64,000 nucleotides of DNA from a bacterium (GCA_965205865.1 CBDBHR010000030.1:1-64000), one strand, 5' to 3'. Counted from the first letter of the stretch, positions 8,323 to 58,159 are shown. The notes: a model not told the origin generated them from the letters alone. Numbers and translations are program-made.

Positions 8323-8326
8323 CGAG

Positions 8327-39793: not shown

Positions 39794-40128
39794 TTACTGG
39801 CAAGCGGAGGAAAGGCAATTCTCGCTGTAGCGCTCTCCGGCTAAGTGTGTCACTTCCTCTTGCAGTATTTCCTCGACTGCCATCAGTCCTCGAGGAATCA
39901 ACTGTTGAATCAACGTTAAGCGGGTGGAAAACTCAAAATCGCCCTGCGCTGATTCTTTATACGCCTCCACGCGATCTTTCGCATTGCTTCTTTCTCGGGT
40001 TTTGCTTACCTTTTTTTTCATACGACCTCCGTTCGTTGGGTTGGGTTCGGTTTTGTGGGGTAAATAAAACCACAACATAACGAATGGAAGGTCATCTTTC
40101 GATTTTCAACTAATTTCAGGACATTTCC
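39794..40128 (-). mobile_element. IS256-family 5' remnant
   Basis: LIPRGLMAVEEILQEEVTHLAGERYS; IR-like end GGAAATGTCCTGAAATTAGTTG. Confidence 0.65.
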
Positions 40129-42153: not shown

Positions 42154-42205
42154 GATCCCACTAAAGAACAAACCTTAAATAACCTGTAATTCTTCCAATG
42201 GTGTG

Positions 42206-42457
42206 AGCAAAATTGGGGGACATGTACACTGCCGCGCATCCCAACTCTACTGTTTTATGCCTGCTGTTACGTGTCCCCTAATTTTGAGCAAAATTGGGGG
42301 ACATGTACACTGCTGCGCATCCCAACTCTACTGTTTTATGCCTGCTGTTACGTGTCCCCTAATTTTCAATGGTGTGAGCAAAATTGGGGGACATGTACAC
42401 TGCTGCGCATCCCAACTCTACTGTTTTATGCCTGCTGTTACGTGTCCCCTAATTTTG
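42206..42457. repeat. Three tandem ~81-bp palindrome-ended units (family A)
   Basis: Unit AGCAAAATTGGGGGACATGTAC..GTTACGTGTCCCCTAATTTTG at 42206, 42287 and 42377. Confidence 0.93.
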
Positions 42458-42587
42458 CGTATCCATACTTCTGACTTATTTAAATTTCATTCCTAAATGT
42501 CAGACTGAGACACTACCTCTTTTCTTCAGTTGACTACCTTCCCGGTATGAAGTCCGTACAATTTCGAAGACAATTTAATACTTGATC

Positions 42588-43048
42588 GTGCCAAGGTAAA
42601 TCCGAGGCATTGGAATTGGGAGCAATCCCATGAAATTTGTTAATGTTACCCAATGGGTGCTCACGCGAATATCTCTGAAATTCCCATCAGACCAAAGTTT
42701 AGCCAACGGGTCAGTAGAGAAATCCGCGTGCGTCACAGTAATGTGGGGTATGAAGCCGGATGGAACAAGAGTGTAGGCCGCGTGATTGAGCCCCGAAATA
42801 GAAATTGTTGTGGTTAATGAATAGCTCCAGTGAAGGATCATGTTGGAGGAAAGCCGACGGCGTTCAAGTGTCGGAAGGCAGCAGTCCGAGTGCGCATCTA
42901 AGGGCTAACACGAGGACACCACCGGGGTCGGAGAGCGGGGCATGCGCTCATAGGGGTAGCTCGAACTTGGGAGAACCTGTTGTCTCCCTGCCATCGATTG
43001 CCGGAAGCGGGGGGGGGCTGGCTGGGTAACCACTGGCTCTACCCGGAC
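42588..43048 (+). ncRNA. Internally deleted (ORF-less) group II intron remnant
   Basis: 5' GTGCC; domain I motifs GGCCGCGTGATTGAGCCCCGAAA, GCCGAC..GTCGGAAGGCA, CCGGGGTCGGAGAGCGGGGCATG, GAACTTGGGAGA; DVI-like end GGGTAACC..CTACCCGGAC. No DV and no RT ORF. Confidence 0.8.
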
Positions 43049-43054
43049 CCCTTC

Positions 43055-43551
43055 TCATATTTTAGCTATGGATTTATACTCTGACCGGCAATATTTTAAA
43101 GAAAACTTTTTAGAAATTTTTACACAAATTCCATAGGCTTTTATCGTATTTCTTAACTCACCATTGGTCCATTCAAAAAACCATACTTTAGCAAAAGAAA
43201 GCTCTACTTTCTTTTTGGTTAAGCCTAGTTTTTCCGTCTCCTTCAGAATTAAAATCTTTTCCTCTTCCTCGGGCCAATCGTTAAAAGCAAGAATAATTCC
43301 CTTTACTCTTTTTGAATTCCGAGAACCTTTAGATGTAGGAGCCCTCGATGGCTCAACAAAAGCTTTTGCTCGGCTCTCTCTAATGTTATGATCGCTATTT
43401 GGACTAACCGTTTGAGACATAAGTATGGAAGTTCTTCGTAATAAGGAAGAATTTTTCTTATTGTCATTTTTATACTGTGAGCCCGTTCCCCAAGTAAAAG
43501 GAACAAAGAAGACAAAAAGAAGAATTTTAAGAAAAACCTATTATAAATCAT
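43055..43551 (-). pseudogene. Low-GC hypothetical exported protein, frameshifted
   Basis: Signal-like ORF 43303-43551 overlapping ORF 43055-43420. Confidence 0.45.
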
Positions 43552-43719
43552 TATATATAAAAAAAGTTAATAAAATAGTGATTTTATTTATACCTAAATC
43601 CTGCAATTGCATATTTTGACTGAGTTTTCCCCCCACTCTTTGGCAGGTTTTTTTAAAAAAAGGATAAAAACAGGATCAATAAAAATGAGTTTCTCATCTG
43701 CCAAGCTCCTTTCCAATAA

Positions 43720-43953
43720 TCAACCAAGCAACTTTTGCGCAGTGAAACTGATGGCGATGGCAACGCCAATATTGCTGACGACTAACCCCACGCCCCATTG
43801 AAACATCCTACCTTCCAAACGGACAATTTCAGTATTGAGATTGGCGATATCACCCTTCAATTCTGTGCGGAGATTGGCAATATCCTCTTTGGTTGCCATT
43901 CGCTCCACAATGGTTTCCAGCCGAATGACACGATGGTCCAATGCGTGTTCCAT
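43720..43953 (-). CDS. Small coiled-coil protein with C-terminal TM (DUF1640-like)
   Basis: ATKEDIANLRTELK-GDIANLNTEI repeat followed by a hydrophobic tail. Confidence 0.65.
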   Translation of the reverse strand: MEHALDHRVIRLETIVERMATKEDIANLRTELKGDIANLNTEIVRLEGRMFQWGVGLVVSNIGVAIAISFTAQKLLG

Positions 43954-44170
43954 AGTTCTTGCCCCAATTAAAGACTCAAGTGTGACGGTAAAGGTGAGGA
44001 GTGACCCCGTGTCTGAAATCCGGACTCCTGTGTTTGCCGGGTAACCCGGCAATTATCCACATTGACGTTCACGTCGTAATTTATAACGATTTTGACGAAG
44101 TTCCAACCAAAAAAGTGATCCCTGTCAGTCAACTTGGGAAGTGGCAATCGTATGGGAGGGAGAGTACTGG

Positions 44171-44331
44171 AAAAGCTGCACGACTCGTAGTTCACCACGG
44201 AGGCGTTGGTAACTGTGGAGTTGGGCGTTCGAGTCGCGTTCTTCCCGGATGATCACTAGCTGCGGGCTGAAGCCGAAGAGGGTCAGGGCGCGGTTGAAGG
44301 CCGAAAGTTGGTAGGTGCGCGTGAGATCCTT
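44171..44331 (-). pseudogene. Displaced slam 3' fragment (shortest, most diverged)
   Basis: Encodes KDLTRTYQLSAFNRALTLFGFSPQLVIIREERDSNAQLHSYQRLRGELRVVQLF. Confidence 0.85.
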
Positions 44332-44763
44332 TTTTCAAGAGCACCCGATGACCCTTGATTCCTTTTGTGATGTCGGGTTTCAGTCCCAATACCTTTTCCA
44401 CAAGCTCCAGCGAGGTGACACAATATCCTTGGTCAGCGGAAAAAGCTCTCAAGCTTGCATATTTCCGGGTAGTGGGTCAGTTTGATTTTTGGGATATGTT
44501 CTCATAAATCGAAGATCAATCAACCGAAATTTATAATATTTCTTGACATTTCCATTAATTGTTCTATAGTATTTGCTTGGCATAATGTCAATCCTGTTTG
44601 TCGGGTTACCCGATGAATACAAAAGTCGCAATCAATCCGAGGGGTCATGACCCTCGGAGCGGCGAATAATCGGGAAACATTTTCCATTTGGTTTGATGTT
44701 GCGCAATAACCCGGCGCCCTTCAACAAGGCATCGAAGCACAAATCTTAAACCAAAGAGGGAAA

Positions 44764-44955
44764 ATGCGATATTTCGTAATTTTTTTGTTGTGTTCAGTTG
44801 CAGGAACTGTTTTTGCGCATGGGGGTGGGACTAATTCCAGTGGATGTCATACCAATCGAAAAACAAGGGGTTATCATTGTCATAATAAGACTCCTCGCCA
44901 GGTTATTCCATATAAAGAAGTTCGGCCTTCATGCGAAATCGAAGATTACTTTTGA
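44764..44955 (+). CDS. YHYH-domain exported protein (probably truncated)
   Basis: Signal peptide, then HGGGTNSSGCH..GYHCH. Confidence 0.7.
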   Translation: MRYFVIFLLCSVAGTVFAHGGGTNSSGCHTNRKTRGYHCHNKTPRQVIPYKEVRPSCEIEDYF

Positions 44956-45296
44956 TGGCGGCGCACTCGATATTCGTCATTTTCCAAGGGAATTGACGAT
45001 TCGTTATGAAGTCAAACCATTGGCGGTTTGGAAAGGGAAAAACCCAGAATTACGATAACATTGTTGATGATGATTTTACAAATGAAAAATATAGAAAAAT
45101 ATAGAAAATCGTTTAAAAATCAAGAAGAACCCAAGCCAGAGCCAGAACCGGAACCAACGCCTAGTCCTGATCCACAACGTGCGCCGATTAGGCCATTACA
45201 TGTGCCGCCATATCCTCCAAGGCCCCCTGACCCGCCTTTCCCGAGTCCGCCGCAGGAGGACAACTTTTAACTTATTTTGGATAGTAAGGAGGAAAT

Positions 45297-45830
45297 ATGA
45301 AGCCTAATAAAAAATTGAGAAATTCTTATTGGGAAGAAATGTTGGAATCTGAAAGAGTATCTCGTTATTATAATTATTTGTGTGAGTATTTTTTATTTCA
45401 GACGAAGTTGTATAAATGGTTATTTTTAATAACTTCGGCTAGTTTCACAACAAGTATTTTGATTCAAATATTCAAGGTTATTCCATTTGAATATCATACA
45501 TTTTCACAAGTGTTGATTTTGTTTGTGAGTATCATATTGACAGGAATTTCTCTCATATTTTTTATTAAAAATCCTCAGCAACAAATAATTATGACTACTG
45601 TGATTAGTGATCAAATCGATCCGATTGTTGATCAATATAAGCATAATTGGAATATGATGAATGAAGCCGATTTTGAAATAAATGAAGAGAGCATACGTAA
45701 TTTCATTAAAGATTCCAGAGAAAAAATAACACTGATTACAAGTAGAGGAAAAGGGTTAGCACGCAATAAAAAATTGGAAATGAAAGCTCACAAAGAAGTT
45801 GTTGCTTTGTTTTCAGCTCAACAGGCATAA
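45297..45830 (+). CDS. Low-GC two-TM protein (SLATT-like topology)
   Basis: Strong RBS TAAGGAGGA; two hydrophobic helices and a helical cytoplasmic tail; preceded by Pro-rich ORF 45028-45270. Confidence 0.65.
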   Translation: MKPNKKLRNSYWEEMLESERVSRYYNYLCEYFLFQTKLYKWLFLITSASFTTSILIQIFKVIPFEYHTFSQVLILFVSIILTGISLIFFIKNPQQQIIMTTVISDQIDPIVDQYKHNWNMMNEADFEINEESIRNFIKDSREKITLITSRGKGLARNKKLEMKAHKEVVALFSAQQA

Positions 45831-46142
45831 CTTCAAAAAATCATCAAAGCCTAAATCAAGCGGCAAGACAAAGTTTCAAGGTGTCGGTGAACATGTTTTC
45901 ATTACGGCGGTTGTTATATTTGAAGCATGATTCGCCGATGTACAGGTGAGCGTATCGCCTGCCATACCAGTGATGCTGGCCATACCAGGATTTATTTCTA
46001 AAATAATTAATTCATTTATGAGTAAAGACGAACAATAAGAGTTCCCCAAGTGAAATATCCGGGCCTTTTTATGTAGTTTCTTCAGGTACATTAATTGTTG
46101 GGAAGATTCTGTGACTGGGAAAATTAAATCTCGACCTATGAA

Positions 46143-47000
46143 CTTAGGAACAAACCTTAAATAACCTGTAATTCTTCCAATGGTGTGAGCAAAATTGGGG
46201 GACATGTACACCGCTGCGTATCCCAACTCTACTGTTTTATGCCTGCTGTTACGTGTCCCCTAATTTAGCAAAATTGGGGGACATGTACACTGCTGCACAT
46301 CCCAACTCTACTGTTTTATGCCTGCTGTTACGTGTCCCCTAATTTTGCGTACATACTTCTAACTTATTTAAATTTCATTCCTAAATGTCAGACTGAGACA
46401 CTACCTCTTTTCTTCAGTTGACTACCTTCCCGGTATGTAGTCCGTACAATTCCGAAGACAATTTAATACTTGACCCCTTTTCAAATATGTCCAAACAAAG
46501 AAAAAAATAACCTGTAATTCTTCCAATGGTGTGAGCAAAATTGGGGGACATGTACACCGCTGCGTATCCCAACTCTACTGTTTTATGCCTGCTGTTACGT
46601 GTCCCCTAATTTAGCAAAATTGGGGGACATGTACACTGCTGCGTATCCCAACTCTACTGTTTTATGCCTGCTGTTACGTGTCCCCTAATTTTGCGTATCC
46701 ATACTTCTGACTTATTTAAATTTCATTCCTAAATGTCAGACTGAGACACTACCTCTTTTCTTCAGTTGACTACCTTCCCGGTATGTAGTCCGTACAATTC
46801 CGAAGACAATTTAATACTTGCCCCCTTTTCAAATATGTCCAAACAAAGAAAAAAATAACCTGTAATTCTTCCAATGGTGTGAGCAAAATTGGGGGACATG
46901 TACACTGCTGCGCATCCCAACTCTACTGTTTTATGCCTGCTGTTACGTGTCCCCTAATTTTGCGTATCCATACTTCTAACTTATTTAAATTTCATTCCTT
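46143..47000. repeat. Tandem composite repeat: five family A units in three modules with IS-end and GACAATTTAATACTTG(A/C)CCCC linkers
   Basis: Units at 46188, 46267, 46534, 46613 and 46882; module period about 347 bp. Confidence 0.92.
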
Positions 47001-47220
47001 AAGAAATCTGACTTGGCAGAATCTCGGTCACAGAATGGCTCAGCGTTTTGGAAAACAATCGATGGTTCATGGGCATCTTGGTTGCATGCGCATCGGCAAT
47101 CGGTGTTATTTTTGGAACAATCCTGGAAATTTTGTCAAATACTATGGGATAATTGCTGACAAATAGCAGAACAGACAGATTTATGTCGCTTGCCTTTGAA
47201 CGAGGAAAGCGGCATTTTTT

Positions 47221-47640
47221 TTAGAAAAGTCGCACGACTCGTAGTTCACCACGGAGGCGTTGGTAGCTGTGGAGTTGGGCGTTGGACTCGCTTTCTTCGC
47301 GGATGATCACCAGTTGCGGGCTGAAGCCGAAGAGTGTCAGGGCGCGGTTGAAGGCCGAGAGTTGGTAGGTTTGCGTGAGATCCTTGCGTTTCGCGGGCCC
47401 CAGGGTGAGATAGGACCAGTCGGGTTGGAAGAAGCTGCGGGCCACGGTGGCCGAGGCACCCACGCTGAAGCCCAGCGGCAACGCGTAGGAAGCCGAGAGG
47501 CGGCCCCAGGGTCGCGTCAGGCGATGAGAACGCAGGCGGGGCTTTTCTTCGCCATAGCCGGCGCTCAGGCTGAGGGAGAGCGAGGGGCTGGCCTGCCAGC
47601 GTCCGGTCAGCGAGAAATTCCAGCGAGGACCGTCCAGGTG
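47221..47640 (-). pseudogene. Displaced slam 3' fragment (420 bp, in frame)
   Basis: Part of the ~910-bp direct repeat 46730-47640 / 52087-52995. Confidence 0.92.
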
Positions 47641-47641
47641 A

Positions 47642-47733
47642 AAAGGGGTCAAGTATTAAATTGTCTTTTTATACTTGGCCACTTATTGATCCCCTCTCCA
47701 TCTTAAAAAGACAATTTAATACTTGACCCCTTT
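47642..47733. repeat. Perfect 30-bp inverted repeat (family B) with 32-nt spacer
   Basis: AAAGGGGTCAAGTATTAAATTGTCTTTTTA (47642-47671) / TAAAAAGACAATTTAATACTTGACCCCTTT (47704-47733). Confidence 0.92.
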
Positions 47734-47737
47734 CCTT

Positions 47738-49357
47738 TCATTCCATCTCTTTTTTCAGTTGCTGGTCAATCCAGAGACGGGCCAGGATGACTGCAGAATT
47801 TTCCGGTCCCAAGCTGGTTTCGCCGTTATAACCTCAGACCCACGGCTGATGCGCGTTATACTGTATAGGATTAGCAAGCCATAACTGCGGATACTGCGCA
47901 ATTTCGTGCATATCTTTACTTGTCATTGCGGCTGTGGCACCGTAAACGAACATCGAACCCGAGTGAAGTTGGTCTTCCATCATGGCAGCATAATCGCTGT
48001 CCGCGCTGGCCATTCCTTCATAAATACTCGAGAAGAGCCTACCGTGATATTCGGCGTTGGTCAGTACGTTAATCTTAACCTTGACGCCAATCTTAGCCCA
48101 GTAGTCGGCGGCTAATTCTGCATAGGCTATGCTGGCCAAAGGTGCGAAATCCAGGGTGGTCTTGAAACCTTTGGAATAGCCTGCATTAGCCAGTAGCTGC
48201 TTCGCTCTTCCCGGGTCATAGCGATAGTACTGCTTGACCTCTTCGGACCAGTCTTCAAACGTGGTGAAATCCCCAGTCTTCATCGTCAATCCCTGAGGGG
48301 TTGGATCGGCATAACCCATCCAGTAAGTCTTGGCAATGTTCTCGTTGTCCAGCGCCAGTTGCATGGCATGACGCACGTTGATGTCGTTAAAGGGCGGTTT
48401 GTTTAAATTTCCGAAAACTAAACTGTTGTTGGACCTAAAAGGCCAGAAAATGATTTCTGGGTTGGTTCGCCTGAGACTGTTTATTTTGTCGATGGATATT
48501 TGAGAGTCACCGACTGTTCCCAGAAAATCGATCCGACCCGTGCGCAGTGACGCTAAACGTGTTGCTTGGTTTGGCATTATATGGGCCGTAATCTCATCAA
48601 TATAAGGCAATCTGTTCCCTTGATATTTTTCGTCGACGTCCCAGTAATCAGGATTCTTGGTCCAGGTCAAAGATCTTCCTTCGAGCACATCCTCCAGTTC
48701 ATAGGGCCCGGTGCCGACCAAGTTCCTCCAATCCTTAAGGTCTCCTTCTTGCTTGATGACCTCGGGAGGGTATACAACTGTAATCCAGCTGCCGAGGATT
48801 GTTCGTAGGGCACCCGGGTTTGACTGCTTCAGCTTGACAACAACCGTATATTTGTCGGTGGCCGTTATCGATTCTAATGGCAAATTGGCGAGTTGGGGTA
48901 CAAAAGGACTAGGTCCGGCTTCACTGAAATTGCCCATCCCAAATAAACGATGAAAGTTATATTCGACATCTTGGGCGGTTAGTTCCCGACCGTTCATCGG
49001 CGCCTTGTTTTGCCAGTGAACCCCCTTGCGGATTTTGAAGACCGTCGTGAGCTGCTCGGGCTGCTCCCAGCTTTCCGCCAGTGCTTCTATGGTAGATGGA
49101 GGTTCATTCGTTGAATACCAGCCATCTTCCTCTCTATCTATTCCCCACTCCCCTACTAGTTTCTCATTAACCAAACCGACATAATGAATAGCCCTGCGAC
49201 CAATGTACCAACTATCCGGGTGCTCACCTATCCAGGTGAGGGCGTATGCTAATTTTCCTCCATATTCAGGTGCGGAAAATTCTTCACCGTTAGTGACCAC
49301 CGGTATGCTGAGTATGACCAATATTGCTAAAATTTTTTTGAAGATGAAATGACACAT
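47738..49357 (-). pseudogene. Family 5 ABC substrate-binding protein with premature stop at 47834-47836
   Basis: LAESWE..FKIRKGVHW, VGTGPY, VRHAMQLALD; frame continues after TGA as GYNGE..LWID..EME*. Confidence 0.8.
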
Positions 49358-49434
49358 GACGACTCCTTCTGCTTTAGTTGATTCAGGACAATATGTATTC
49401 GCGTTACAGACAAAGAGAACACCAGTTTTGTAAA

Positions 49435-49854
49435 TTAACACGCCCGCTCTTCCCAACTCATGTCATCGGGAACCATTGGGGGAGAATCTTGATCAGCGCA
49501 TGCAGAATCCAATTGATTTTGACTGAAATTTTTTACGAATTTGAGATTAGCCCCCGTGAGGTCAGCATCTGTGAGATCAGTTTTTCTAAGATCAGCATCT
49601 GTGAGAACAGCCCGCGTGAGGTTTGCATTTCTGAACGTTGCATTGGCAAGAATGGCTCTTTCTAAGCTAGCCTCGGTGAGTGTGGTACATAAAAGCTCGG
49701 CATGCTTCATATTTGCGCCTTTCAGAATTGCATTTGAGAGATGCGCGTTAATAAGGATTGCCTGTTCCAAATTGGATTCTTCAAAATCAATATTTCTAAC
49801 GTCAGCATTTCGTAGGTCGATACCATATCCTGCATTGCGATTATGAAAATTCAC
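49435..49854 (-). CDS. Pentapeptide-repeat protein (probably a fragment)
   Basis: A(D/N)LxxA repeats. Confidence 0.8.
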   Translation of the reverse strand: MNFHNRNAGYGIDLRNADVRNIDFEESNLEQAILINAHLSNAILKGANMKHAELLCTTLTEASLERAILANATFRNANLTRAVLTDADLRKTDLTDADLTGANLKFVKNFSQNQLDSACADQDSPPMVPDDMSWEERAC

Positions 49855-50269
49855 TTTGCTGGCATTTATATATTTTAGGGAAAATTCATCTTTGAGGTCG
49901 ACTATTGGGATTTTATTTTTACAATTTTCATTTGATTGGTCCGGTTCATTATTTGCGGCTTCAAGTCTCTCCGCTATATCAAATTCAACAATGAGTTCGA
50001 GTATTTTGATTTGACCACGATTTATTAACGCTGGATTGTAATCAGGCCAGTTGCGTATTCAATAATTATGCGTTTTTCGTTGGCATCTTTTGTGACATTT
50101 GCTATGCTTTGTGTGCCTGATGACCTCAGGAGAGAAAAGTGAAACAGATTTCGTTCTCTTTCAATTATCCTCTTAGGTTAATCTTCGCAATCTTATTTGG
50201 AGAGTGTTCATCTCATCGTATTTGTACAAAAACGCCCATTTGACAAATCTTTAGATAAGGAGAAAGACA

Positions 50270-50797
50270 ATGAACTGTCTAAACTACATTGCGCCCTTAG
50301 TGCTTGATGGGGCAACGTCCATGAGATTATTTCGGTGTGCTGGAGTCCTGGCAGGGCTGACCTGTTGCTTGCTGTTTTCTACTGGGGCCGACGCACAGGA
50401 CAACACATCCAAAGATTCAGGCTTTAGAAAATTTCCCGGAACAGTGGTGGTCGAGCCTCTCGACCCTGGTGTTCCCCTTCGCCGCACTGCCCCTGGTTTT
50501 TTAGGAATTTACGGTCAAAAGATGGGAAAAACGACGGATAATAAATATTATCTTATTCTGGAAGGTCTGCAAATTCCCCTCTTTTTCCAGAAAATCCGCT
50601 GGGTAAAGGTCGCTCCAATCAAGTTAATTGAAAATAAATTTGAAATCGATAATAAATATTCTTGGGTGTATTGGGGCAAAGTCGGTCAAGGCACTAGTCC
50701 GAACTTCAAAATTGTTGCTCAGGACGAAATTAACCAGAAACAGAAGTTGAAGCTTGAAACATTCTGGAAACAGTACATACAAGAAAAGGCTGAGTAA
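50270..50797 (+). CDS. Hypothetical exported protein
   Basis: RBS AAGGAG; signal-like segment ending ADA; coupled to a truncated membrane ORF at 50797. Confidence 0.6.
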   Translation: MNCLNYIAPLVLDGATSMRLFRCAGVLAGLTCCLLFSTGADAQDNTSKDSGFRKFPGTVVVEPLDPGVPLRRTAPGFLGIYGQKMGKTTDNKYYLILEGLQIPLFFQKIRWVKVAPIKLIENKFEIDNKYSWVYWGKVGQGTSPNFKIVAQDEINQKQKLKLETFWKQYIQEKAE

Positions 50798-51147
50798 TGG
50801 TAACCTCGCCCTGGTGGCAGTTGATACTGAGTTGGATTTTCATATATGGGTCCCCGTTCGCTGCATTCTTTTTTGGCGTTTATATTTCGATTCGTCTGAA
50901 TCTAAATGGAGATTTAAGTCGAGCGCATGTATGGCTCATGTCCCTTCACAAACTCACTTCGGGCAGGTGTCCCCCTTATTATCTCTATATTAATCGATGC
51001 AATCTTTGGTCTGCGCGCATCGGCAATCGGCGTTATTTTTGGAACAATCCTGGAAATTCTGTCAAATACTATGGGATAATTGCTGACAAATAGCAGAACA
51101 GACAGATTTATGCCGCTTGCCTTTGAACGAGGTAAGCGGCATTTTTT

Positions 51148-51340
51148 TTAGAAAAGTCGCACGACTCGTAGTTCACCGCGGAGGCGTTGGTAGCTGTGGA
51201 GTTGGGCGTTCGACTTGCGTTCTTCCCGGATAATCACCAGTTGCGGGCTGGAGCCGAAGAGGGTCAGGGCGCGCTTGAAGGCCGAGAGTTGGTAGGTTTG
51301 CGAGAGATCCTTGCGTTTCGCGGGCCCCAGGGTGAGATAG
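51148..51340 (-). pseudogene. Displaced slam 3' fragment (193 bp) with its downstream flank from about 51015
   Basis: YLTLGPAKRKDLSQTYQL..GELRVVRLF*; ends at the family B motif GACAATCTGATACTTGACCCCTTT. Confidence 0.9.
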
Positions 51341-51376
51341 AAAGACAATCTGATACTTGACCCCTTTTTATTTTGT

Positions 51377-51610
51377 TCAATCAAAAATGTTTTGTGGAAG
51401 ATTGAAATGTCGAATTATTGATTTCTGGTAACCTGGATATATTTCAGTCTTATCACCATGAAACTTGATTGGATAGTGTCTTTCTTTACCCAAAATATCT
51501 GGATGGACAATCATCCGGTGACTTCCTTTACCTCTGTAATCAGAGACGTTAAATCGAGTATCATGTTTTTTCAGAATTTTTATGATTTCACGATAAGTAC
51601 GAGTTTTCAT
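51377..51610 (-). CDS. hicA: HicA-family toxin
   Basis: RGKGSH motif, basic, 77 aa. Confidence 0.8.
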   Translation of the reverse strand: MKTRTYREIIKILKKHDTRFNVSDYRGKGSHRMIVHPDILGKERHYPIKFHGDKTEIYPGYQKSIIRHFNLPQNIFD

Positions 51611-51957
51611 GGATGAAGAGATTCATTAGAAACGTTCTGATTTATGGAAGGCATAAATACGTCTTGAACAATATAATCTTTCTCATGCTCTTTTGATTCT
51701 GAATCCATCCTTCTTTGTTTGATTTCTTCAATTACAATTTTTTCATATAAATCCAAATAATATTTATCTGCCGGAATAAATATTTGATCCAATGTGCCAT
51801 GATGTATTGCATAATTTATTTGGAATTCAATTGTCTCTAAGAGATCATCTAAAGCCTCTTCGGAATTTTTCCCAAACCCCCTTAAATTCATATCAATAGC
51901 AATTGCATACCAACCATTATCCTCTTGAACACCTAAAACTTTTAGCGCAATGCTCAT
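51607..51957 (-). CDS. hicB: HicB-like antitoxin
   Basis: WYA..GFGKNSEEALDDL partial RNase H fold; acidic; ATGA overlap with hicA. Confidence 0.7.
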   Translation of the reverse strand: MSIALKVLGVQEDNGWYAIAIDMNLRGFGKNSEEALDDLLETIEFQINYAIHHGTLDQIFIPADKYYLDLYEKIVIEEIKQRRMDSESKEHEKDYIVQDVFMPSINQNVSNESLHP

Positions 51958-52577
51958 ATTTACCTCCCCTTCTTTATTTCAAATACTTGTTAAAAGATGA
52001 TATTAATTTATCCCGTATAACAAGTTTTTTGTACATTTATCGTGAAAAAACGTCAACTTATCAACAAAATCGCAATTATCAGAACTTAAATGTCAGACTG
52101 AGACACTACCTCTTTTCTTCAGTTGACTACCTTCCCGGTATGTAGTCCGTACAATTCCGAAGACAATTTAATACTTGCCCCCTTTTCAAATATGTCCAAA
52201 CAAAGAAAAAAATAACCTGTAATTCTTCCAATGGTGTGAGCAAAATTGGGGGACATGTACACTGCTGCGCATCCCAACTCTACTGTTTTATGCCTGCTGT
52301 TACGTGTCCCCTAATTTTGCGTATCCATACTTCTAACTTATTTAAATTTCATTCCTTAAGAAATCTGACTTGGCAGAATCTCGGTCACAGAATGGCTCAG
52401 CGTTTTGGAAAACAATCGATGGTTCATGGGCATCTTGGTTGCATGCGCATCGGCAATCGGTGTTATTTTTGGAACAATCCTGGAAATTCTGTCAAATACT
52501 ATGGGATAATTGCTGACAAATAGCAGAACAGACAGATTTATGTCGCTTGCCTTTGAACGGGGGAAGCGGCATTTTTT

Positions 52578-53895
52578 TCAGAAAAGTCGCACGACTCGTA
52601 GTTCGCCGCGCAGGCGTTGGTAGCTGTGGAGTTGGGCGTTGGACTCGCGTTCTTCCCGGATGATCACCAGCTGCGGGCTGAAGCCGAAGAGGGTCAGGGC
52701 GCGGTTGAAGGCCGAGAGTTGGTAGGTTTGCGTGAGATCCTTGCGTTTCGCGGGCCCGCGGGTGAGATAGGACCAGTCGGGTTGGAAGAAGCTGCGGGCC
52801 ACGGTGGCCGAGGCTCCCACGCTGAAACCCAGCGGCAGCGCGTAGGAAGCCGAGAGGCGGCCAGGGTCGCGTCAGGCGACGAGAGCGCAGGCGGGGCTTT
52901 TCTTCGCCATAGCCGGCGCTCAGACTGAGGGAGAGCGAGGGGCTGGCCTGCCAGCGTCCGGTCAGCGAGAAATTCCAGCGGGGACCGTCCAGGTGTTTGG
53001 ATTGCTCGTTTCGCCGTTCGTGCCAGCTCGCCCTTTCGATGGCCAACCATTGCGCTCCCAGTCGTTGCGCGCTTTCCAGGCGCAGGCCCTTTTCCAGGTA
53101 GGCGGGCTGGTTGGCCGACCACTGCTGGCGGCGACTGGCGAGCAGGCTGATTTCCGTGTTGCGCGTCATGATCCAACGTGGCCCGGCATGCAGCGAGATC
53201 AACATGCGATTGTACTGCGTTTCGCGGTGCTCCTGTCGCCAGAGGTCGGCGCCGGCGCGCAGTTTCAATCGTTGCGAGAGGGGATGCTCGTATTCGGCGC
53301 CACCCCAGACGATGAGGCCCACCCCGGAGGAGGGTTTCGATTCATCGGTCACCGTTAAGGGGAAGCCGTAGAACCAGACGATATCCGCGGATGAAGCGGC
53401 GTTGACGTTGCTGTCCGGCGCCAGGGCCAATCCGAAGTGCGCGTCCCAACGACGGCGGGCGCGGATGGCGTCGAGGTAGCGCTGCACGTTCTTGGCAACG
53501 GCTTCGGGAGGTTTGCCGGCCAGCACGCGCTCGAAATGCTGCCGGGCCAGGTTGTCTTCCCCTTTGAGAAAGAAGGCGCGAGCCAGTTCGAGTCGTGGCC
53601 TGCTCAGCTCGGGCTGGAAGATGAGAATGCGTCTCAGGGCGGCGATGGCCGCATCCAGCAAGGCTTCACGGGTGTCTTCATCGAGGCCGGGCTCGTGCGA
53701 CGCGCCAATGCCCGCCAGTCCTGTGAGGAAAAGCACTTCCACGTCGTCCGCATTGGCCTCTAGCAGGGGCCGGAGAAGCTTGAGCGCCTCGAGGTGGCGT
53801 CCATTTTGGATCAGTTTTTCGGCATCTTTGACACTGGCCTGCAGCGCTGCCGTCATCAGCAGAAAAACGGCGAGCATCGCCAGCAAACGCAACAT
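52578..53895 (-). pseudogene. Slam-like surface lipoprotein exporter (TPR plus DUF560 barrel), frameshifted at about 52861
   Basis: Signal peptide, RLELARAFF TPR, APDSNVN barrel start, terminal Phe; two C missing relative to the 47 kb copy. Confidence 0.88.
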
Positions 53896-54063
53896 AATGA
53901 ATATAGGATGTGGGAGATAATGTTGGAGGGTGAGCCTGGGGGAGTGACAGCCTCCCCCGGTTCTCGGCTGGGTCTTCAGTGTTATGGTTCGCTCTCAAAA
54001 TAAGAAGGGCAGTTTTCAGGCCACCCTCCAAGGTTCATCACAACTGCAGATGTCTTCTGAAGA

Positions 54064-55707
54064 TTATTCGTCCTCCCGTGTGGCATAGGCACCGGCAGCA
54101 TTGCCATCTGAGAAATTGGCATTGAAGGTGCCGAAGATGCCTGTGGGGCGTTCATTTGAAGTACCGTAGCCTTGCGCCTTCCATTTGCCATCGATAGTAT
54201 TATTGCTAGTGAACGTTTCACCATTCTCTAACTCAGCATTGCCAAACGCAGCTTCCTTAAGAGTAACTTCCCAAGTGGGGTTAACCGCGTTACCTCTGAA
54301 ATTTGAGATTTCACCACTAATCATCGGGGAGTCCCCAAACTTCACTTCTAAGCTGACTTTGGCTTCGAACTCGCCAGATCGAACATTATCCCCATCACGG
54401 TAAGCGGATATGCCAACGGCTGGCCCGCTATATGAGGCGCTTGTGTCTGTTGGATCATCTGCGGGGATAGCGAGATCAAGATTAGCCGTGTTGGCGTCCG
54501 TTCTAGCGTAAGTTGTGACCATCTCTTCGTCATCGCCATTAACCGAAATCCAATAACCATATTGGGCGTAATCTGTATCCTCACTGTATGTCACTGGGTC
54601 TGCGCTCGTGTCTGCGACATAGAGCCTCTCCTCATTAGTCGGAGTGAAATACCAACTCCCCGTCAGCATCCTATCGTCAGTCTCCGGCCCAGCTGCCACA
54701 ATGCAATCGCTGCCGAGGCAGATTGCTATGCCTGGAATACCATTGTGCGTAGCAACTTTCTGCGTACCAAACATCGCCGCATCGGTGTTTACATTTAGAG
54801 TAGAAGCGGAAGTGACGGTTTCACCATTGATTGATGCCACTTTAACGGCCTTTAGGTTGTTATCACCGTCGACAATATTCGCATCCATGGTTGTGCCGAC
54901 GATCTCGCTCCATGTTTTGCCTAGCTGATCTTTACGCATGGTCCGCCGTACCTCAGGGATGTCATCAACAACGGGTGCGATTTCTCCCGCTACTAATAAG
55001 GCACTGCTTTTTAGCGCACCCTCAATAGCCTCCGCAACTTCCATGGCTATACTAGCGGGCGATGTTGGCATTTTGGCATCGGAAGGACCGGTAACTTTTT
55101 CGACAGATGCTTTCGCATTTTCCAGGAACATTTCGATGGCCTCGATATTCTTCTGGACTTCTGCGATCGCAACTTCCAGCGCAGCCGTCGCAGCGTCATC
55201 GGCTCCTTCTTTCGCCGCTTCGAGCGCTGCCCGCGCCTCTATTGCAGCTGTCAAAGCGTCATCGATCGTCGTCTTGGCGTCCAGCACTTTCTGAGCATTC
55301 TCCATAGCGGTCATGGATTCGCCGCCGACACCAAGCACCTCGAGCATATCTGGCATTGAGTATTTAATCGCGTTCGCCAAGGCGGTATTCGCCGTATTTT
55401 TAGCTTCATCAGCCTTGTTGTCTTCCTCGAATGCCACTTGGAACGGACCTCGCTCGTCCACCATCTCTTCACCATCCTCCTCTTCACCATCCTCTACCAT
55501 TTCCATCTCTTCTTCGGCAGTTGCCTTCGATTTACTCGACGTAGTGCAGGAGGTCAAGAAGCCGACCGCCGCTAACATGAAGAGCGCGACCACCAAAATT
55601 CTGAGGTACGTATTTTTTCCCGTCCTGCATCCAACTGGGGAAACAAGAGCGGTCTCCTCACCGATTTTTTCTTTTTCCATTTTTCCACTTTTTTCAAATT
55701 CACTCAT
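54064..55707 (-). CDS. Surface lipoprotein with TbpB-like C-terminal beta-barrel
   Basis: Lipobox LTSC, acidic linker, Ala-rich helices, YGYW, ASYSGPAVG, SGEFEA, GKWKAQGYG, GTFNA..GAY; directly upstream of the slam gene. Confidence 0.82.
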   Translation of the reverse strand: MSEFEKSGKMEKEKIGEETALVSPVGCRTGKNTYLRILVVALFMLAAVGFLTSCTTSSKSKATAEEEMEMVEDGEEEDGEEMVDERGPFQVAFEEDNKADEAKNTANTALANAIKYSMPDMLEVLGVGGESMTAMENAQKVLDAKTTIDDALTAAIEARAALEAAKEGADDAATAALEVAIAEVQKNIEAIEMFLENAKASVEKVTGPSDAKMPTSPASIAMEVAEAIEGALKSSALLVAGEIAPVVDDIPEVRRTMRKDQLGKTWSEIVGTTMDANIVDGDNNLKAVKVASINGETVTSASTLNVNTDAAMFGTQKVATHNGIPGIAICLGSDCIVAAGPETDDRMLTGSWYFTPTNEERLYVADTSADPVTYSEDTDYAQYGYWISVNGDDEEMVTTYARTDANTANLDLAIPADDPTDTSASYSGPAVGISAYRDGDNVRSGEFEAKVSLEVKFGDSPMISGEISNFRGNAVNPTWEVTLKEAAFGNAELENGETFTSNNTIDGKWKAQGYGTSNERPTGIFGTFNANFSDGNAAGAYATREDE

Positions 55708-55747
55708 GGTATTTCTCCTTCTTATTCGATTAAAATAACATCAAAAC

Positions 55748-57930
55748 GATTTTGCCTGCTCTTTTATAATTCCCCGTAAAACCATTGTCGAGTCTTTTTC
55801 CAAACCATTCTGAAAAAAACCGGACAGGCCAAACTTCAATGATTTTGATTTTGCCTGCTCTTTTTTAAATCCCCTTAAAACCAATGTCAACACCTTTTTT
55901 CAAACTGAAAAAAACGGACGAGCAAAACTTCAATGATTTTGCCTGACCTTTTTTAAAATACTATAAAGCCAATGCCAAGTCTTTTTTTCAAATCCCGAAA
56001 ACCCGACGAGCAAAACTTCAATGATTTTGATTTTGCCTGCTCTTTTATAAAGCACTATAAAGCCATTGCCAAGTCTTTTTTCAAATCTGAAAAAAACCCG
56101 ACCAGCAAAACTTCAATGATTCCGCCTGCTCTTTATTAAAACACTCCTAAGTTGAGCGATTCGTAATAAAAAAAGCTCCCAACCTTGGGAAAAATGTGTT
56201 ATATTTCAGTGGTTAAAATAAAAAAATTCACAAAATCTAACACAACCCAACAGGTAGAGAGCTTTATGGGAAAAAATATAACAGTTCAGGATAAAAAGAA
56301 ACAGATAATTGATGCCATTCAGCCAACCGATGAACACTTGACAAGTCGTGCCGGATTGGCCTTGTTTGCCCAGTATCTGCAAAGCATTCGGCTGATGCCG
56401 ATCATCGAAAGGTTGTTTGGTTCGATGCGTAAAAATAAAAAAGGAATTGCTGTCTCTGATTTTTTTGCGCAGATCCTCTGTTTTTTCATGGACGGCAGCA
56501 GCCGTCATCTCAGTTGGTTCGATCACCTCAAAAGGGGCGAGGGTTATGCCGCCTTGCTGTCATGCAGTGAGCAAGACCTTGCCTCCTCGCATGCCGTGAA
56601 AAGATTTTTTGGAAAGTTCTCTTTTGTACGAGTCTACCTGTTTCGTCATCTGCTGCAGATACTGTTTATCTGGAGACTGAAGAAGACTTGTCCAACGGTG
56701 ATTGTGTTGGGTCTGGATTCGATGGTACTTGATAATGATGATGCCCTGAAACGCCATGGTGTCCAGCCGACTTACAAGATGGTCAAAGGATTTCATCCCC
56801 TGCAGATGAATTGGGGTCGTTATATGGTTGACGCAGTTTTTCGCGGAGGTAGCAAACATTCGAATCACGGGAAAACTGTTCAGAATATGCTGGTTCATAT
56901 CGTGAAAAGGATTCGCCGCCAATACCGAGATGATGTACCAATCATGGTGCGCATGGACACCGGTTTTTTTGACGAAAAAATCTTTGAAACCTGTGAACGA
57001 CTGAACATCGGTTAGCTGAAGCGGAGGAAAGTCCTATGCCAATGTGAGGAATGCTGCGGAAGAAGCCACTGACTGGCAGACCTTCACTTCATCGGGCAAG
57101 AAGGAGATCTGGCAGTACACCGAGTTTAAGAGCCAGCAGGGGACATGGAAGAAGGCTCGTCGCACGATCTACAGCCGCTTGATTGAACACGATAGCCAAC
57201 TCTCTTTGCCGGGTTTGGATCATGATGGCGTGATCATTACGAACCTTGGTATGGGAGAGGCCATTGATGGCCAACTCAGCCAAGCCGCTGAAGAAAAGCG
57301 CATCGATGCTCATAGCATCCTTGGCTCGTACCACGGACGGGGAAAGGATGAACTGGCCAACCGGGCGCTGAAAAACTTTGGTCATCAACAACTTCCCTTC
57401 AAGGACTTCATTTCCAATACCGCATGGTACTATCTGATGCTGGTTGGCAATAACCTCTTCGAATCCTTCAAAGAAGATGTCAGCAAGCCAGTGATTGCGG
57501 TAACGATGTATGCTGATACCTTCCGGCGCCAGTTTCTTGATACGGCAGGCAAACTGGTTCGTCATGCCGGAAAACTGATCTTGAAAATACCAAAAAAGAC
57601 CTTTGAGCGCTTGCAATTGGACCAACTATTTGCCACCTGCCAGCACGCATTGGCGCCAATCTGATCAACGGGTTTCGCTTCAATTAAAAAACAAAAACAT
57701 TAAAGTTTAAGGGGATAAGTGCGTCCAAAACATGAGAAATGAAGACCTTCCACATCTGAAAACAGCATTTTGATGCTCATTCTCACTCAAACATCCATGG
57801 ATTTGATGATCAAAATCTGATTTCAGAATGATTGCCTTTCTCAGGCAAAAAAATCATCTTGAAAATCTGATCCTTTTTTAGAATCGCTCAATTTGGGACA
57901 CTATAAAGCCAATGCCAAGTTTTTTTTCAG
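55748..57930 (-). promoter_or_regulatory. Five diverged ~90-bp tandem repeats, each with a sigma70-like promoter facing the lipoprotein gene; fifth unit split by IS1380
   Basis: Units at 55748, 55847, 55935, 56029 and 56118. Minus-strand TCGACA/TTGACA/TTGGCA-N17-TATAAA/TAAAAA/TAATAA. Confidence 0.65.
56146..57897 (+). mobile_element. IS1380-family element copy 3 (1752 bp), split transposase
   Basis: Same IRs; perfect 5-bp TSD ACACT. Confidence 0.95.
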
Positions 57931-58159
57931 CTCACAAAGTTGCTGGCTGAAACAGACAGTCTCCGAGGGTTGTGAAAAAAGGAAGTTTCACAAAAACAAA
58001 CAACCCTCGCAAAGGAGACTGTCATGGAAAAAATTAACATTGAATCTTTCTCATGTCAAACACTTTTTTTGGAATTGACGCGCATTAGAAGACCTTTGCC
58101 TCAATTCCACGCACCCCCACTCCGTATTTCGCAAGGGGCGATTCGATCCGGCCAGCTCC

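What the first reader, a model, noticed from the sequence alone, without database searches (positions are those of the whole stretch)
42165..55707. Cassette-accreting locus behind a Slam exporter: repeated displaced slam 3' ends alternate with unrelated cargo
Seen: downstream of the slam gene (52578-53895, minus) lie three co-oriented copies of its 3' end (51148-51340, 47221-47640, 44171-44331). They differ by many synonymous and a few amino-acid changes (ERES/ESES/ERKS/ERDS). Unrelated cargo lies between and beyond them: hicBA; secreted, pentapeptide and SBP genes; YHYH, Pro-rich and 2TM genes; small coiled-coil ORFs. Established: islands that integrate in a gene 3' end displace the old end and can pile up in tandem; Rhs/CDI orphan modules and integrons form similar arrays, with TA cassettes stabilising the latter. 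Inference: an integron-like accretion or shuffling platform using the slam 3' end plus palindromic repeats as entry site. No integrase is visible in the window, and I know no description of this at a Slam/type XI secretion locus.
Basis: partly seen in the sequence, partly recalled or inferred. Interest (0 to 1): 0.8.

Follow-up and report, generated by a model that had tools for sequence, protein, structure and literature searches.

The report
Displaced slam gene ends pile up
Behind a broken outer-membrane exporter gene (slam) in an uncultured marine-type bacterium lie three leftover copies of that gene's tail, separated by unrelated genes; they look like scars of repeated sloppy recombination rather than a purpose-built gene-capture machine.

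Summary
Three co-oriented, 5'-truncated slam 3' ends (51148-51340, 47221-47640, 44170-44331) lie downstream of slam (52578-53895, minus), 91-98% identical to it. The repeats run past the stop codon (+133, +490, about +40 nt). The 'intact' slam carries a 2-nt frameshift. Two independently inserted IS1380 copies bracket the locus. PRP, SBP and a group II intron are damaged. A related MAG (L001, about 77% nt) has slam, then pentapeptide-SBP, then a slam 3' relic, so one layer is old. A near-identical f2 junction occurs on another contig, so f2 is not a misassembly. Differences between copies are mostly synonymous, and several amino-acid variants recur in intact alleles elsewhere: the relics are snapshots of earlier functional alleles plus some decay. 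The relic junctions differ (-189, -417, about -165), no recombinase was found in the scanned ORFs, and cargo lies on both strands. A 27-nt motif or hairpin abuts f1 and f2 here, the L001 relic, and the intron fragment. Best reading: sequential 3'-end displacement by illegitimate or homology-facilitated recombination, then gene conversion, as proposed for Rhs and T6SS arrays. It is not an integron-like platform. Interest is moderate.

The parts
54064..55707 (-). 547-aa lipoprotein (lipobox-like LTSC), the candidate Slam-dependent surface lipoprotein upstream of slam
   Evidence: ORF. No Pfam or NCBIfam hit. 25% identity over its C-terminal 138 aa to the L001 lipoprotein (E 0.006), which hits NF041636 slam_lipo at E 2e-15, below the curated cut-off. 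The Atlas lead points to TbpB_B_D clusters, score 0.89. The AF2 model is unusable, pLDDT 33.
52578..53895 (-). slam (T11SS outer-membrane protein) with a 2-nt deletion after codon 345 (52860/52861) that puts the last 93 codons out of frame
   Evidence: Pfam SlipAM PF04575 at E 4e-10 on the N part and 4.4e-5 on the C-terminal 80 aa; TPR hits fall below their cut-offs. The frameshift is seen. GC is 63.7% against 47.7% for the window.
52087..52577 (-). Downstream flank 'DS' of slam: DS-a 52445-52577, DS-b 52360-52444, hairpin repeat R 52210-52359, unit S with the motif 52087-52209
   Evidence: Repeated after f2 (whole) and after f1 (DS-a only). Only 3 substitutions in 491 nt against f2's copy, all within the first about 90 nt.
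51377..51957 (-). hicB-hicA toxin-antitoxin pair; the discrete module spans 51376-52067
   Evidence: HicA_toxin PF07927 at E 5.9e-8. The module is 89.6% identical over 693 nt to L001 4013-4698, with sharp ends, where it lies elsewhere and in another orientation.
51342..51366 (-). 27-nt motif copy whose inner end abuts relic f1
   Evidence: One search finds 6 copies in the window against 0.00 expected. The junction is read.
51015..51340 (-). Relic f1: the last 189-193 nt of slam (51148-51340) plus 133 nt of DS-a
   Evidence: It has 2 private non-synonymous changes (K-42, S-34) and 2 shared with intact alleles elsewhere.
50270..50797 (+). 175-aa ORF on the opposite strand to slam; its secreted nature is judged by eye from the translation
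   Evidence: ORF; no family hit.
49435..50016 (-). Pentapeptide-repeat gene, 5'-truncated relative to the 349-aa L001 orthologue and abutted by a short remnant that I take, from recall, to be IS5-like
   Evidence: PF00805 at E 1e-42. 79.4% nt identity to L001 12510-13117. Stops lie upstream of the homology.
47741..49456 (-). Family-5 solute-binding protein gene; a premature stop at 47834 removes about 31 codons compared with L001
   Evidence: PF00496 at E 8e-64. 71-77% nt identity to L001 13340-15139. The gene end is aligned. The L001 copy is split into two ORFs.
47642..47733 (.). 92-nt perfect palindrome made of two motif copies; its outer end abuts relic f2
   Evidence: I2: 30-nt arms, 100% complementary. 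The DNA fold gives -30.5 kcal/mol, z -9.65. The Rfam mir-8517 hit is below its gathering score and is taken as chance.
46730..47640 (-). Relic f2: the last 417 nt of slam plus stop (47221-47640) and the whole DS (46730-47220)
   Evidence: 97.6% over 911 nt. The frame is intact where the main gene is shifted. The same junction (ORF start MTPFHLDG) is seen in P0001 from another contig.
46142..46729 (.). Further tandem R-S units (period 348 nt; hairpin sub-repeat of 79-81 nt)
44764..45830 (+). YHYH-domain ORF, Pro-rich ORF and a 2-TM SLATT-like ORF on the opposite strand
   Evidence: NF033223 at E 3e-10; SLATT_4 only weak at E 0.002-0.004.
44170..44331 (-). Relic f3: 162 nt of the slam end, fused upstream to the 5' part of another small ORF (44332-44452), with a degenerate DS-a start downstream
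   Evidence: It has 2 private non-synonymous changes and 1 shared. It sits in a 545-nt segment between two copies of a CGGGTAACCCG-type repeat (44023-44052 and 44598-44627), where L001 has a single palindrome.
43720..44052 (-). Small ORF read by eye as a coiled-coil plus one TM segment
   Evidence: ORF. ORFs that look similar by eye occur at L001 5137, 6189 and 18164.
42588..43050 (+). Group II intron 5' fragment with no IEP ORF, abutting a truncated motif copy (42563-42587)
   Evidence: Rfam RF02005 at 87.8 bits on 42678-42937. Sequence read.
42160..42592 (.). A further R-S repeat block with no slam relic
40146..41897 (-). IS1380-family element, copy A (transposase split into 276 + 206 aa)
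   Evidence: NF033539 and PF13701. Flanks are TATGA and TTTGA.
56146..57897 (+). IS1380-family element, copy B, inverted relative to A, with its own 5-bp target duplication ACACT

Best explanation
This is a horizontally acquired, now decaying Slam (type XI secretion) and surface-lipoprotein locus in a SAR324-like bacterium. The DNA just 3' of slam has been rebuilt several times. Each rebuild left a working slam 3' end, with some of its downstream flank, upstream of the previous one. The older end was pushed downstream as a 5'-truncated relic. I commit to recombinase-independent sequential displacement as the mechanism. One crossover is homologous and lies within slam. The other join is illegitimate, at short microhomology, preferentially at a 27-nt motif and its 92-nt hairpin. 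The events could be homology-facilitated illegitimate recombination of imported DNA, or local duplication at the same fragile site. Afterwards the direct repeats exchange sequence by gene conversion, the active gene is replaced by alleles from other strains, and the relics decay. The hicBA pair lying between direct repeats may hinder loss of the array. Shown: the relics, their junctions, the allele-like divergence, the mosaic identity, the shared layer in L001 and the lack of a recombinase in the scanned ORFs. Inferred: the type of recombination, the fragility of the motif and the stabilising role of hicBA.
For: Relics and identities. Allele-like divergence: main versus f2 has 12 synonymous and 3 non-synonymous events in 417 nt. 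P(12 or more of 15 synonymous) is 1.4e-5 if both copies are neutral and 1.2e-3 if only one is. Of about 10 amino-acid positions that vary among the four copies, L-60, S-51, R-50 and K-22 are seen in intact alleles elsewhere. At -101, f2's H is the state of all six intact alleles, while main's R is shared only with the fragment P0001. Five changes are private to one relic. Mosaic pattern: the distal 401 nt of DS are identical between main and f2, although synonymous sites differ by 11%. Old layer plus concerted evolution: L001 has slam, pentapeptide, SBP and then a 182-nt relic. That relic is 93.6% identical to L001's own slam end over 140 nt but 74-76% to the window copies. Heterogeneous junctions with short microhomology were read by eye: GTC.T at f1, CA at f2, and up to AAGGATCTCAC at f3. 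No integrase, resolvase or HUH enzyme appeared in the scanned ORFs. IS copy B carries its own 5-bp target duplication, so the two ISs are separate insertions and did not move or flip the locus as a unit since. The published model for such arrays without a recombinase is Kirchberger et al. 2017, PMC5361080 (passages read).
Against: Three of four relic 5' ends (f1 -189, L001 relic about -178, f3 about -165) fall within 27 nt, about 0.005 under uniform breakpoints. The slam ORF of a sister strain (P0157) leaves slam at the very nucleotide before f1's first base. The 27-nt motif is a discrete unit at four junctions. All three points could indicate a targeted process. Nothing shows import rather than local duplication. 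The near-identity of DS fits a recent local duplication as well. Natural competence of the host is unknown. Relics f1 and f3 have no independent confirmation from another assembly.
Confidence: 0.5

Rival explanations
1. Site-specific accretion: small integrase-less cassettes (CIME-like or integron-like) are inserted into an attachment site in the slam 3' end. The recombinase is encoded elsewhere in the genome, and the 27-nt motif or hairpin is the cassette-side site.
For: The breakpoint cluster at -165 to -189 in three of four relics. P0157's break coincides with f1's. The motif lies at the f1, f2 and L001-relic junctions and at the intron fragment. Inverted motif copies flank pentapeptide-SBP in both genomes. 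The hairpin is strong. From recall, not from any call here, some group II introns insert at hairpin sites such as terminators or attC.
Against: No recombinase in the scanned ORFs. No common core sequence at the junctions. The motif meets slam by opposite ends at f1 and f2. f2 starts at -417. The repeats extend 133-490 nt past the stop, which an att site does not need. Cargo lies on both strands. There was no slam tail in phages or plasmids. The apparent recurrent -56-codon boundary in database fragments is at least partly an alignment artefact: P0135, P0147 and P0140 share native sequence upstream of it.
Confidence: 0.15
2. Purely local history: an ancestral tandem duplication, or two tandem slam genes, followed by unequal crossing-over, nested deletions and gene conversion. 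No DNA was imported with each layer. The allele-like differences come only from ordinary allelic replacement of the active gene.
For: 911-nt direct repeats and 348-nt tandem R-S arrays invite unequal exchange. DS is identical over 401 nt. Within-genome similarity exceeds between-genome similarity. The same left side (TTGAC[C/G]CCCTTTT) meets different slam positions in the window and in L001, as nested deletions from one point would give. DUF560 genes very often neighbour other DUF560 genes, 928 of 1,111 neighbourhoods in PMC12282271 (passages read).
Against: It needs several extra deletions to give three different 5' ends and three different 3' ends. The hicBA module, at 89.6% to L001 against about 77% for its neighbours, looks exchanged rather than inherited in place. 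It does not explain why the motif sits at the junctions.
Confidence: 0.25
3. Assembly artefact: strain variants or paralogous slam loci of a metagenome were stitched into one contig.
For: The copies differ by 2-9%, as strain variants would. Many relatives in the databases carry frameshifts (P0158, P0192, P0139), so the assemblies of this group may be error-prone.
Against: The slam, pentapeptide-SBP, relic order recurs in an independent 4.26-Mb chromosome assembly. The palindrome-f2 junction recurs in P0001 from another contig. The DNA between the copies is unique, not duplicated haplotype sequence.
Confidence: 0.05

Closest known systems
Sequential displacement arrays at Rhs, CDI and T6SS effector-immunity loci (Kirchberger et al. 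2017, PMC5361080, passages read; that paper cites Jackson et al. 2009 on rhs C-terminal displacement, seen only in its reference list)
   Same: There is a constant 5' gene body. Older 3' ends are shifted downstream in the same orientation as new DNA enters. No recombinase is present, and homology-facilitated illegitimate recombination was proposed as the mechanism. The arrays then spread or homogenise by ordinary homologous recombination.
   Different: In those loci the displaced ends are polymorphic toxin domains, each with an immunity gene that selection retains. Here the displaced ends are near-identical tails of an outer-membrane barrel with no variable module. The intervening genes have no evident link to slam, and the active gene is itself frameshifted.
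Tandem accretion of integrative elements at a gene 3' end (ICE/CIME arrays, tRNA or tmRNA islands); recalled, no paper read here
   Same: Direct repeats made of a gene's 3' end separate unrelated segments. The functional end lies upstream and the old ends lie downstream.
   Different: Those arrays have an integrase and a fixed crossover point, and the repeat is limited to the att region. Here no integrase was found, the breakpoints differ, and the repeats run up to 490 nt beyond the stop codon.
Integrons, or chromosomal cassette arrays stabilised by toxin-antitoxin cassettes
   Same: An ordered array in which newer material lies nearest the anchor. A TA pair lies inside the array. Hairpin-forming repeats occur at some junctions.
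   Different: There is no intI, no attI or attC at every boundary, the cassettes are not co-oriented or promoterless, and at least one layer is conserved between genomes about 23% apart.
Slam / type XI secretion loci (Hooda et al. 2017, PMC5449769, and Grossman et al. 2021, PMC8406197, both seen as search listings and abstracts; PMC12282271, passages read)
   Same: A DUF560/SlipAM outer-membrane protein lies next to a lipoprotein gene. T11SS genes co-occur with transposases and mobile islands and with further DUF560 genes. [quoted passage not shown]
   Different: Two full-text searches and the passages read turned up no description of ordered, co-oriented 3' relics interleaved with cargo. The host appears to be SAR324-like rather than classical Proteobacteria, and a search for SAR324 together with 'surface lipoprotein' found 0 papers.

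Membership tests
Slam / T11SS outer-membrane protein | C-terminal DUF560 (SlipAM) beta-barrel domain | tested here: met
   PF04575 at E 4e-10 (profile 1-187) on the N part and 4.4e-5 (profile 231-279) on the out-of-frame tail. 1815 relatives at E<=1e-20 among 8000 scored candidates.
Slam / T11SS outer-membrane protein | N-terminal periplasmic TPR region | tested here: inconclusive
   TPR_19 at 5e-5 and TPR_Slam at 0.0021, both below their curated cut-offs. Intact relatives carry precomputed TPR domains.
Slam / T11SS outer-membrane protein | Uninterrupted reading frame, that is, a working exporter | tested here: not met
   A 2-nt deletion after W345. It could be a sequencing error, but relic f2 with the same local sequence reads correctly.
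Slam / T11SS outer-membrane protein | Neighbouring cargo with a TbpB-like C-terminal 8-stranded barrel | tested here: inconclusive
   The window lipoprotein has no Pfam, NCBIfam or PDB hit. The Atlas lead to TbpB_B_D clusters scores 0.89. The L001 orthologous-position lipoprotein hits NF041636 at 57 bits, below the 80-bit cut-off. The AF2 model has pLDDT 33.
Integron | intI tyrosine recombinase next to the array | tested here: not met
   None among the ORFs scanned in the 64-kb window. The rest of the genome was not seen.
Integron | attC-type site at every cassette boundary | tested here: not met
   Within the window the 27-nt motif abuts 2 of 3 relic junctions (f1, f2), in both orientations; it also abuts the L001 relic. 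It is absent at f3 and at the 3' sides of the segments.
Integron | Co-oriented, mostly promoterless cassettes | tested here: not met
   ORF175 and the YHYH, Pro-rich and SLATT ORFs lie on the opposite strand. hicBA carries about 110 nt of conserved upstream sequence.
Integrative island / CIME tandem accretion | Integrase and one fixed crossover point within the target gene's 3' end | tested here: not met
   No integrase was found. The relic starts are at -189, -417 and about -165, although three of four relics (with L001) cluster within 27 nt.
Sequential displacement array (Rhs / CDI / T6SS type) | Constant gene body with older 3' ends shifted downstream, same orientation, no recombinase | tested here: met
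Sequential displacement array (Rhs / CDI / T6SS type) | Displaced ends are polymorphic toxin domains, each followed by its immunity gene | tested here: not met
   The ends are 91-98% identical barrel tails. The only toxin-like gene, hicA, belongs to a self-contained TA pair.
Sequential displacement array (Rhs / CDI / T6SS type) | Formation by homology-facilitated illegitimate recombination of imported DNA | not testable with these tools
   Only junction microhomologies could be read. Donor and recipient states are not available.
HicAB toxin-antitoxin | HicA toxin domain with an adjacent HicB antitoxin | tested here: inconclusive
   HicA PF07927 scores above its cut-off. The upstream 116-aa partner has no family hit and is called HicB only from position and conservation with L001.

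The most novel reading that the evidence does not exclude
The slam 3' end, about 55-63 codons before the stop, together with the 27-nt motif or hairpin, is the attachment system of a recombinase-in-trans cassette platform in SAR324-type bacteria. Small integrase-less modules (hicBA, pentapeptide-SBP and others) would be inserted there one after another, each restoring the exporter gene and leaving the previous tail behind. The breakpoint cluster, the motif at four junctions and the matching break in a sister strain would be its footprints.
Probability: 0.1. Interest if true: 0.75.

Novelty: new variant of a known kind. Interest (0 to 1): 0.38.

Why it matters
If the reading holds, sequential 3'-end displacement is not confined to polymorphic-toxin loci, where selection for immunity genes explains the arrays. 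It can also build ordered relic arrays behind an ordinary outer-membrane transporter gene. That makes such arrays a general by-product of one-sided homologous recombination. The relics then serve as a small fossil record of past alleles and of gene conversion in an uncultured lineage. It also places a horizontally acquired T11SS/Slam locus in a SAR324-like genome. Finally, it flags a short hairpin motif as a possible recombination hot spot that could be tested directly.

Tried and rejected
- Composite transposon or IS-driven inversion: rejected. IS copy B has its own 5-bp duplication (ACACT) and copy A has near-matching flanks, so they are separate simple insertions. Their mobilising (IRR) ends point away from the locus.
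- The motif as an IS256 end: the IS256-like remnant at 39794-40078 shows no motif.
- The motif as a dispersed MITE: it occurs only inside this locus in the window. L001 has no copy within 3 mismatches, only diverged copies at the orthologous places.
- A phage or plasmid carrying a slam tail as attP: no tblastn match in either collection.
- A general hot spot at about -56 codons across Slam genes: 267 database hits at E<=0.001, of which the best 150 were listed. From that list I picked 27 short proteins with unaligned N-termini. Ten of them start at SlipAM profile positions 228-235. However, P0135, P0147 and P0140 share native sequence upstream of that point, and several others are frameshift products, so this is largely an alignment-boundary effect.
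- Structure of the lipoprotein C-terminus: the single-sequence AF2 model has pLDDT 33, so no fold search was made.
- Rfam at a permissive threshold: only the intron fragment and a chance miRNA hit on the palindrome.

Full report
**1. What is there**

Read on the minus strand, the locus runs as follows.
- A 547-aa lipoprotein gene (55707-54064).
- slam (53895-52578; Pfam SlipAM).
- A 491-nt downstream flank, DS (52577-52087).
- A hicB-hicA module (52067-51376).
- A 27-nt motif (51366-51342).
- Relic f1 (51340-51148) with the first 133 nt of DS.
- An opposite-strand 175-aa ORF.
- A 5'-truncated pentapeptide-repeat gene (PRP) and a family-5 solute-binding-protein gene (SBP), 50016-47741.
- A 92-nt perfect palindrome built from two motif copies (47733-47642).
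- Relic f2 (47640-47221) with the whole DS and two more tandem R-S units (to 46142).
- Opposite-strand SLATT-like, Pro-rich and YHYH ORFs.
- Relic f3 (44331-44170), fused to the start of another small ORF.
- A small ORF that looks by eye like a coiled-coil membrane protein, and a 121-aa ORF.
- A group II intron 5' fragment (Rfam RF02005, 42678-42937) that abuts a truncated motif.
- One more R-S block (42592-42160).

IS1380-family copies lie on either side (40146-41897 and 56146-57897).

**2.

Identities:
- Main versus f2: 97.6% over 911 nt.
- Main versus f1: 95.1% over 326 nt.
- f1 versus f2: 95.7% over 326 nt.
- f3 versus the other three: 90.7-92.6% over 162 nt.

Corrections:
- The repeated unit always runs through the stop codon into the flank: +133 nt for f1, +490 nt for f2, and about +40 degenerate nt for f3.
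- The 'intact' slam has a 2-nt deletion (GGGG to GG) after codon 345, so its last 93 codons are out of frame. Relic f2 keeps the correct frame at that spot.
- Much else is damaged. PRP lacks the first 120 or so codons of its L001 orthologue. SBP has a premature stop. The intron is a stump. The IS transposase is split in all copies.
- IS copy B has its own 5-bp duplication (ACACT) and copy A has near-matching flanks (TATGA/TTTGA). They are therefore separate insertions, not the ends of a composite transposon, and no inversion between them has occurred since.

**3. Host and origin**

- The window's MiaB is 73-74% identical to proteins named as coming from SAR324 cluster MAGs.
- slam is 63.7% G+C (GC3 0.76) in a 47.7% window.
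- The closest Slam relative that carries an organism name is a Rhodospirillaceae MAG protein at 57% (P0179).

slam was probably acquired horizontally. The neighbouring lipoprotein is only weakly recognisable as Slam cargo.

**4. Comparison with a related genome**

Only L001 is a true relative (60% aa, about 77% nt).

L001 has a lipoprotein gene, an intact 443-aa slam, a 349-aa PRP gene and an SBP gene (split into two ORFs). A 182-nt slam 3' relic follows. One layer of the array therefore predates the split of the two lineages.

L001's relic is 93.6% identical to L001's own slam end over its last 140 nt. It is only 74-76% identical to the window copies, and its first 40 nt or so resemble window-type alleles. 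That is the signature of gene conversion within each genome.

The hicBA module is 89.6% identical to L001's copy, has sharp ends, and lies elsewhere and in another orientation there. The lipoproteins are almost unrelated (25% over 138 aa).

**5. The relics are snapshots of working alleles**

- Main versus f2: 12 synonymous and 3 non-synonymous events in 417 nt. P(12 or more of 15 synonymous) is 1.4e-5 under neutrality of both copies and 1.2e-3 if only one copy were constrained.
- Pairwise omega among the four window copies is 0.06-0.33.
- About 10 amino-acid positions vary among the copies. L-60, S-51, R-50 and K-22 are found in intact alleles elsewhere (P0154, P0005, P0155, P0156, P0159, L001). 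At -101, f2's H is the state of all six intact alleles, while main's R recurs only in the fragment P0001.
- Five changes are private to one relic: f1 K-42 and S-34, f2 S-23, f3 D-22 and Q-3. These fit later decay.
- The distal 401 nt of DS are identical between main and f2, although synonymous sites differ by 11%. The 911-nt repeat is therefore a mosaic. Either recent gene conversion or an allelic replacement ended about 90 nt past the stop.
- P0001, from another contig, has the same palindrome-f2 junction (ORF start MTPFHLDG). It differs from f2 at two residues, both matching the main copy.

**6. Junctions**

- f1...GATTGTCTT(T) | CTATCTCACC, the inner end of a forward motif joined to slam at -189.
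- f2...TTGACCCCTTTT(CA) | CCTGGACGG, the outer end of an inverted motif joined to slam at -417.
- L001 relic...TTGACGCCCTTTT | CTGGGGCC, at about -178.
- f3: the 5' part of another ORF joined to slam near AAGGATCTCAC, at about -165.

Any shared sequence at these joins is 2-11 nt of microhomology, read by eye; there is no common core. The 3' limits differ too.

The motif occurs 6 times in the window, all within this locus, against 0.00 expected. The palindrome folds at -30.5 kcal/mol, z -9.65.

**7. Points that favour a targeted process**

- Three of four relic starts lie within 27 nt, about 0.005 under uniform breaks, unless some are the same event.
- P0157 is a 95%-identical Slam from a sister genome. 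It ends ...FFQPDWS-LN-stop, so it leaves slam at the nucleotide before f1's first base. The residues L-N-stop are what an IS1380 end of the form CCTAAATTGAGCG would encode. That variant end is present in the window as a partial fourth IS copy (10426-10865).
- f1 lacks the 5-bp duplication expected on the far side of such an IS, so f1 is not simply the other half of that insertion. The coincidence has a chance of about 0.04 given the pairs I looked at. It remains unexplained.

**8. No recombinase**

No tyrosine or serine recombinase or HUH enzyme appeared among the ORFs scanned (22, 33 and 47 ORFs). The window has 156 ORFs of 90 aa or more. The unscanned ones were mostly antisense or overlapping frames, and the rest of the genome is unseen. 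The slam tail has no match in the phage or plasmid collections.

**9. Broader database view**

- The f2 protein finds 4 proteins of 78-251 aa among 105 candidates.
- It finds 267 representatives at E<=0.001; the best 150 were listed and many of them are short.
- I chose 27 short ones with unaligned N-termini. Twenty hit SlipAM, and ten of those start at profile positions 228-235.
- P0135, P0147 and P0140 share native sequence upstream of that point, and several others are frameshift products. I therefore treat this as an alignment-boundary effect, not as evidence for a universal hot spot.
- Close relatives of slam are often broken: P0157, P0158, P0192, P0139 and the window itself. P0154, P0005, P0155 and P0156 are intact. 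This reflects either real decay or error-prone assemblies.

**10. Interpretation**

The data fit sequential displacement of the slam 3' end without a dedicated recombinase: one homologous crossover in slam and one illegitimate join, often at the motif or hairpin. Gene conversion between the direct repeats, allelic replacement of the active gene and decay of the relics follow.

The same logic was proposed for T6SS effector-immunity arrays and Rhs loci (PMC5361080, passages read). The differences here are that the displaced ends are conserved barrel tails, not polymorphic toxin domains, and that no immunity-type selection is evident.

A purely local history (duplication, unequal crossing-over, nested deletions) explains much of the same evidence and cannot be excluded. 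A site-specific platform is the most novel reading still open. I give it about 0.1-0.15.

**11. Literature**

- Two searches on Slam/T11SS with 'genomic island' or 'pseudogene', plus passages of PMC12282271, show that T11SS genes co-occur with transposases, islands and further DUF560 genes. [quoted passage not shown]
- None of the listings or passages I saw describes ordered 3' relic arrays.
- A search for SAR324 with 'surface lipoprotein' found 0 papers.
- Supplements were not consulted.

**12. Not checked**

- Metagenome and viral collections (closed).
- The rest of this genome.
- Read-level support for the f1 and f3 junctions.

Noticed in passing
window 52860-52861: The main slam gene has a 2-nt deletion in a G run (GGGG to GG) that relic f2 lacks. 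Relatives P0158, P0192 and P0139 are frameshifted at other points, and P0139 runs into the same wrong frame. This is either real recurrent decay or assembly error.
   Followed up: partly
window 10426-10865, 11256-13007 and 17512-17877: Besides the two flanking copies there is a third full IS1380 copy, a 440-nt partial copy with a variant end (CCTAAATTGAGCG), and a degenerate remnant. All three full copies share the same split transposase (276 + 206 aa).
   Followed up: partly
window 55745-56145 and 57899-57938: An array of 88-94-nt hairpin-containing tandem repeats lies upstream of the lipoprotein gene. IS copy B inserted into it with a 5-bp duplication (ACACT).
   Followed up: partly
window 58160-59843; L001 2400-3350, 5600-7330, 11450-11850, 18000-18810: Dense tandem and dispersed REP-like repeats (periods 16, 51, 66, 74, 80 and 98 nt; core CCTGGTCTTCGCCAGGAATGACA) are shared between the window and the related genome.
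   Followed up: no
window 51376-52067 versus L001 4013-4698: The hicBA module is 89.6% identical between the two genomes while neighbouring genes are about 77%. It has sharp boundaries and a different place and orientation, as if it moves or is exchanged as a unit.
   Followed up: partly
window 39794-40078; L001 12024-12121: An ORF that I take from recall to be the N-terminus of an IS256/Mutator-type transposase (no Pfam hit) is cut by IS1380 copy A. A 98-nt homologous remnant lies between slam and the pentapeptide gene in L001.
   Followed up: partly
window 3-524, 7534-9202, 4946-5777 and 6718-7071: ABC permease genes (BPD_transp_1; from recall the type that partners family-5 binding proteins) are interrupted by an IS4/5-type element, and a MazF/PemK toxin gene lies nearby. 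They might once have served the SBP next to slam.
   Followed up: no
window 44023-44052 and 44598-44627; L001 about 4990-5020: A palindromic CGGGTAACCCG-type repeat occurs once in L001, upstream of a coiled-coil gene. In the window it occurs twice, flanking the 545-nt segment that holds relic f3, as if that segment had entered at the palindrome.
   Followed up: partly
window 52578-53895; L001 9989-11320: slam keeps about 64% G+C in both genomes although its surroundings are 40-50%, despite synonymous divergence of 0.6-0.9 between them. GC-biased gene conversion among the repeats is one possible reason.
   Followed up: no
window 54064-55707 versus L001 8025-9896: The lipoprotein genes upstream of slam are almost unrelated (25% over 138 aa) while slam is 60% identical. 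The presumed cargo gene turns over much faster than the exporter.
   Followed up: partly
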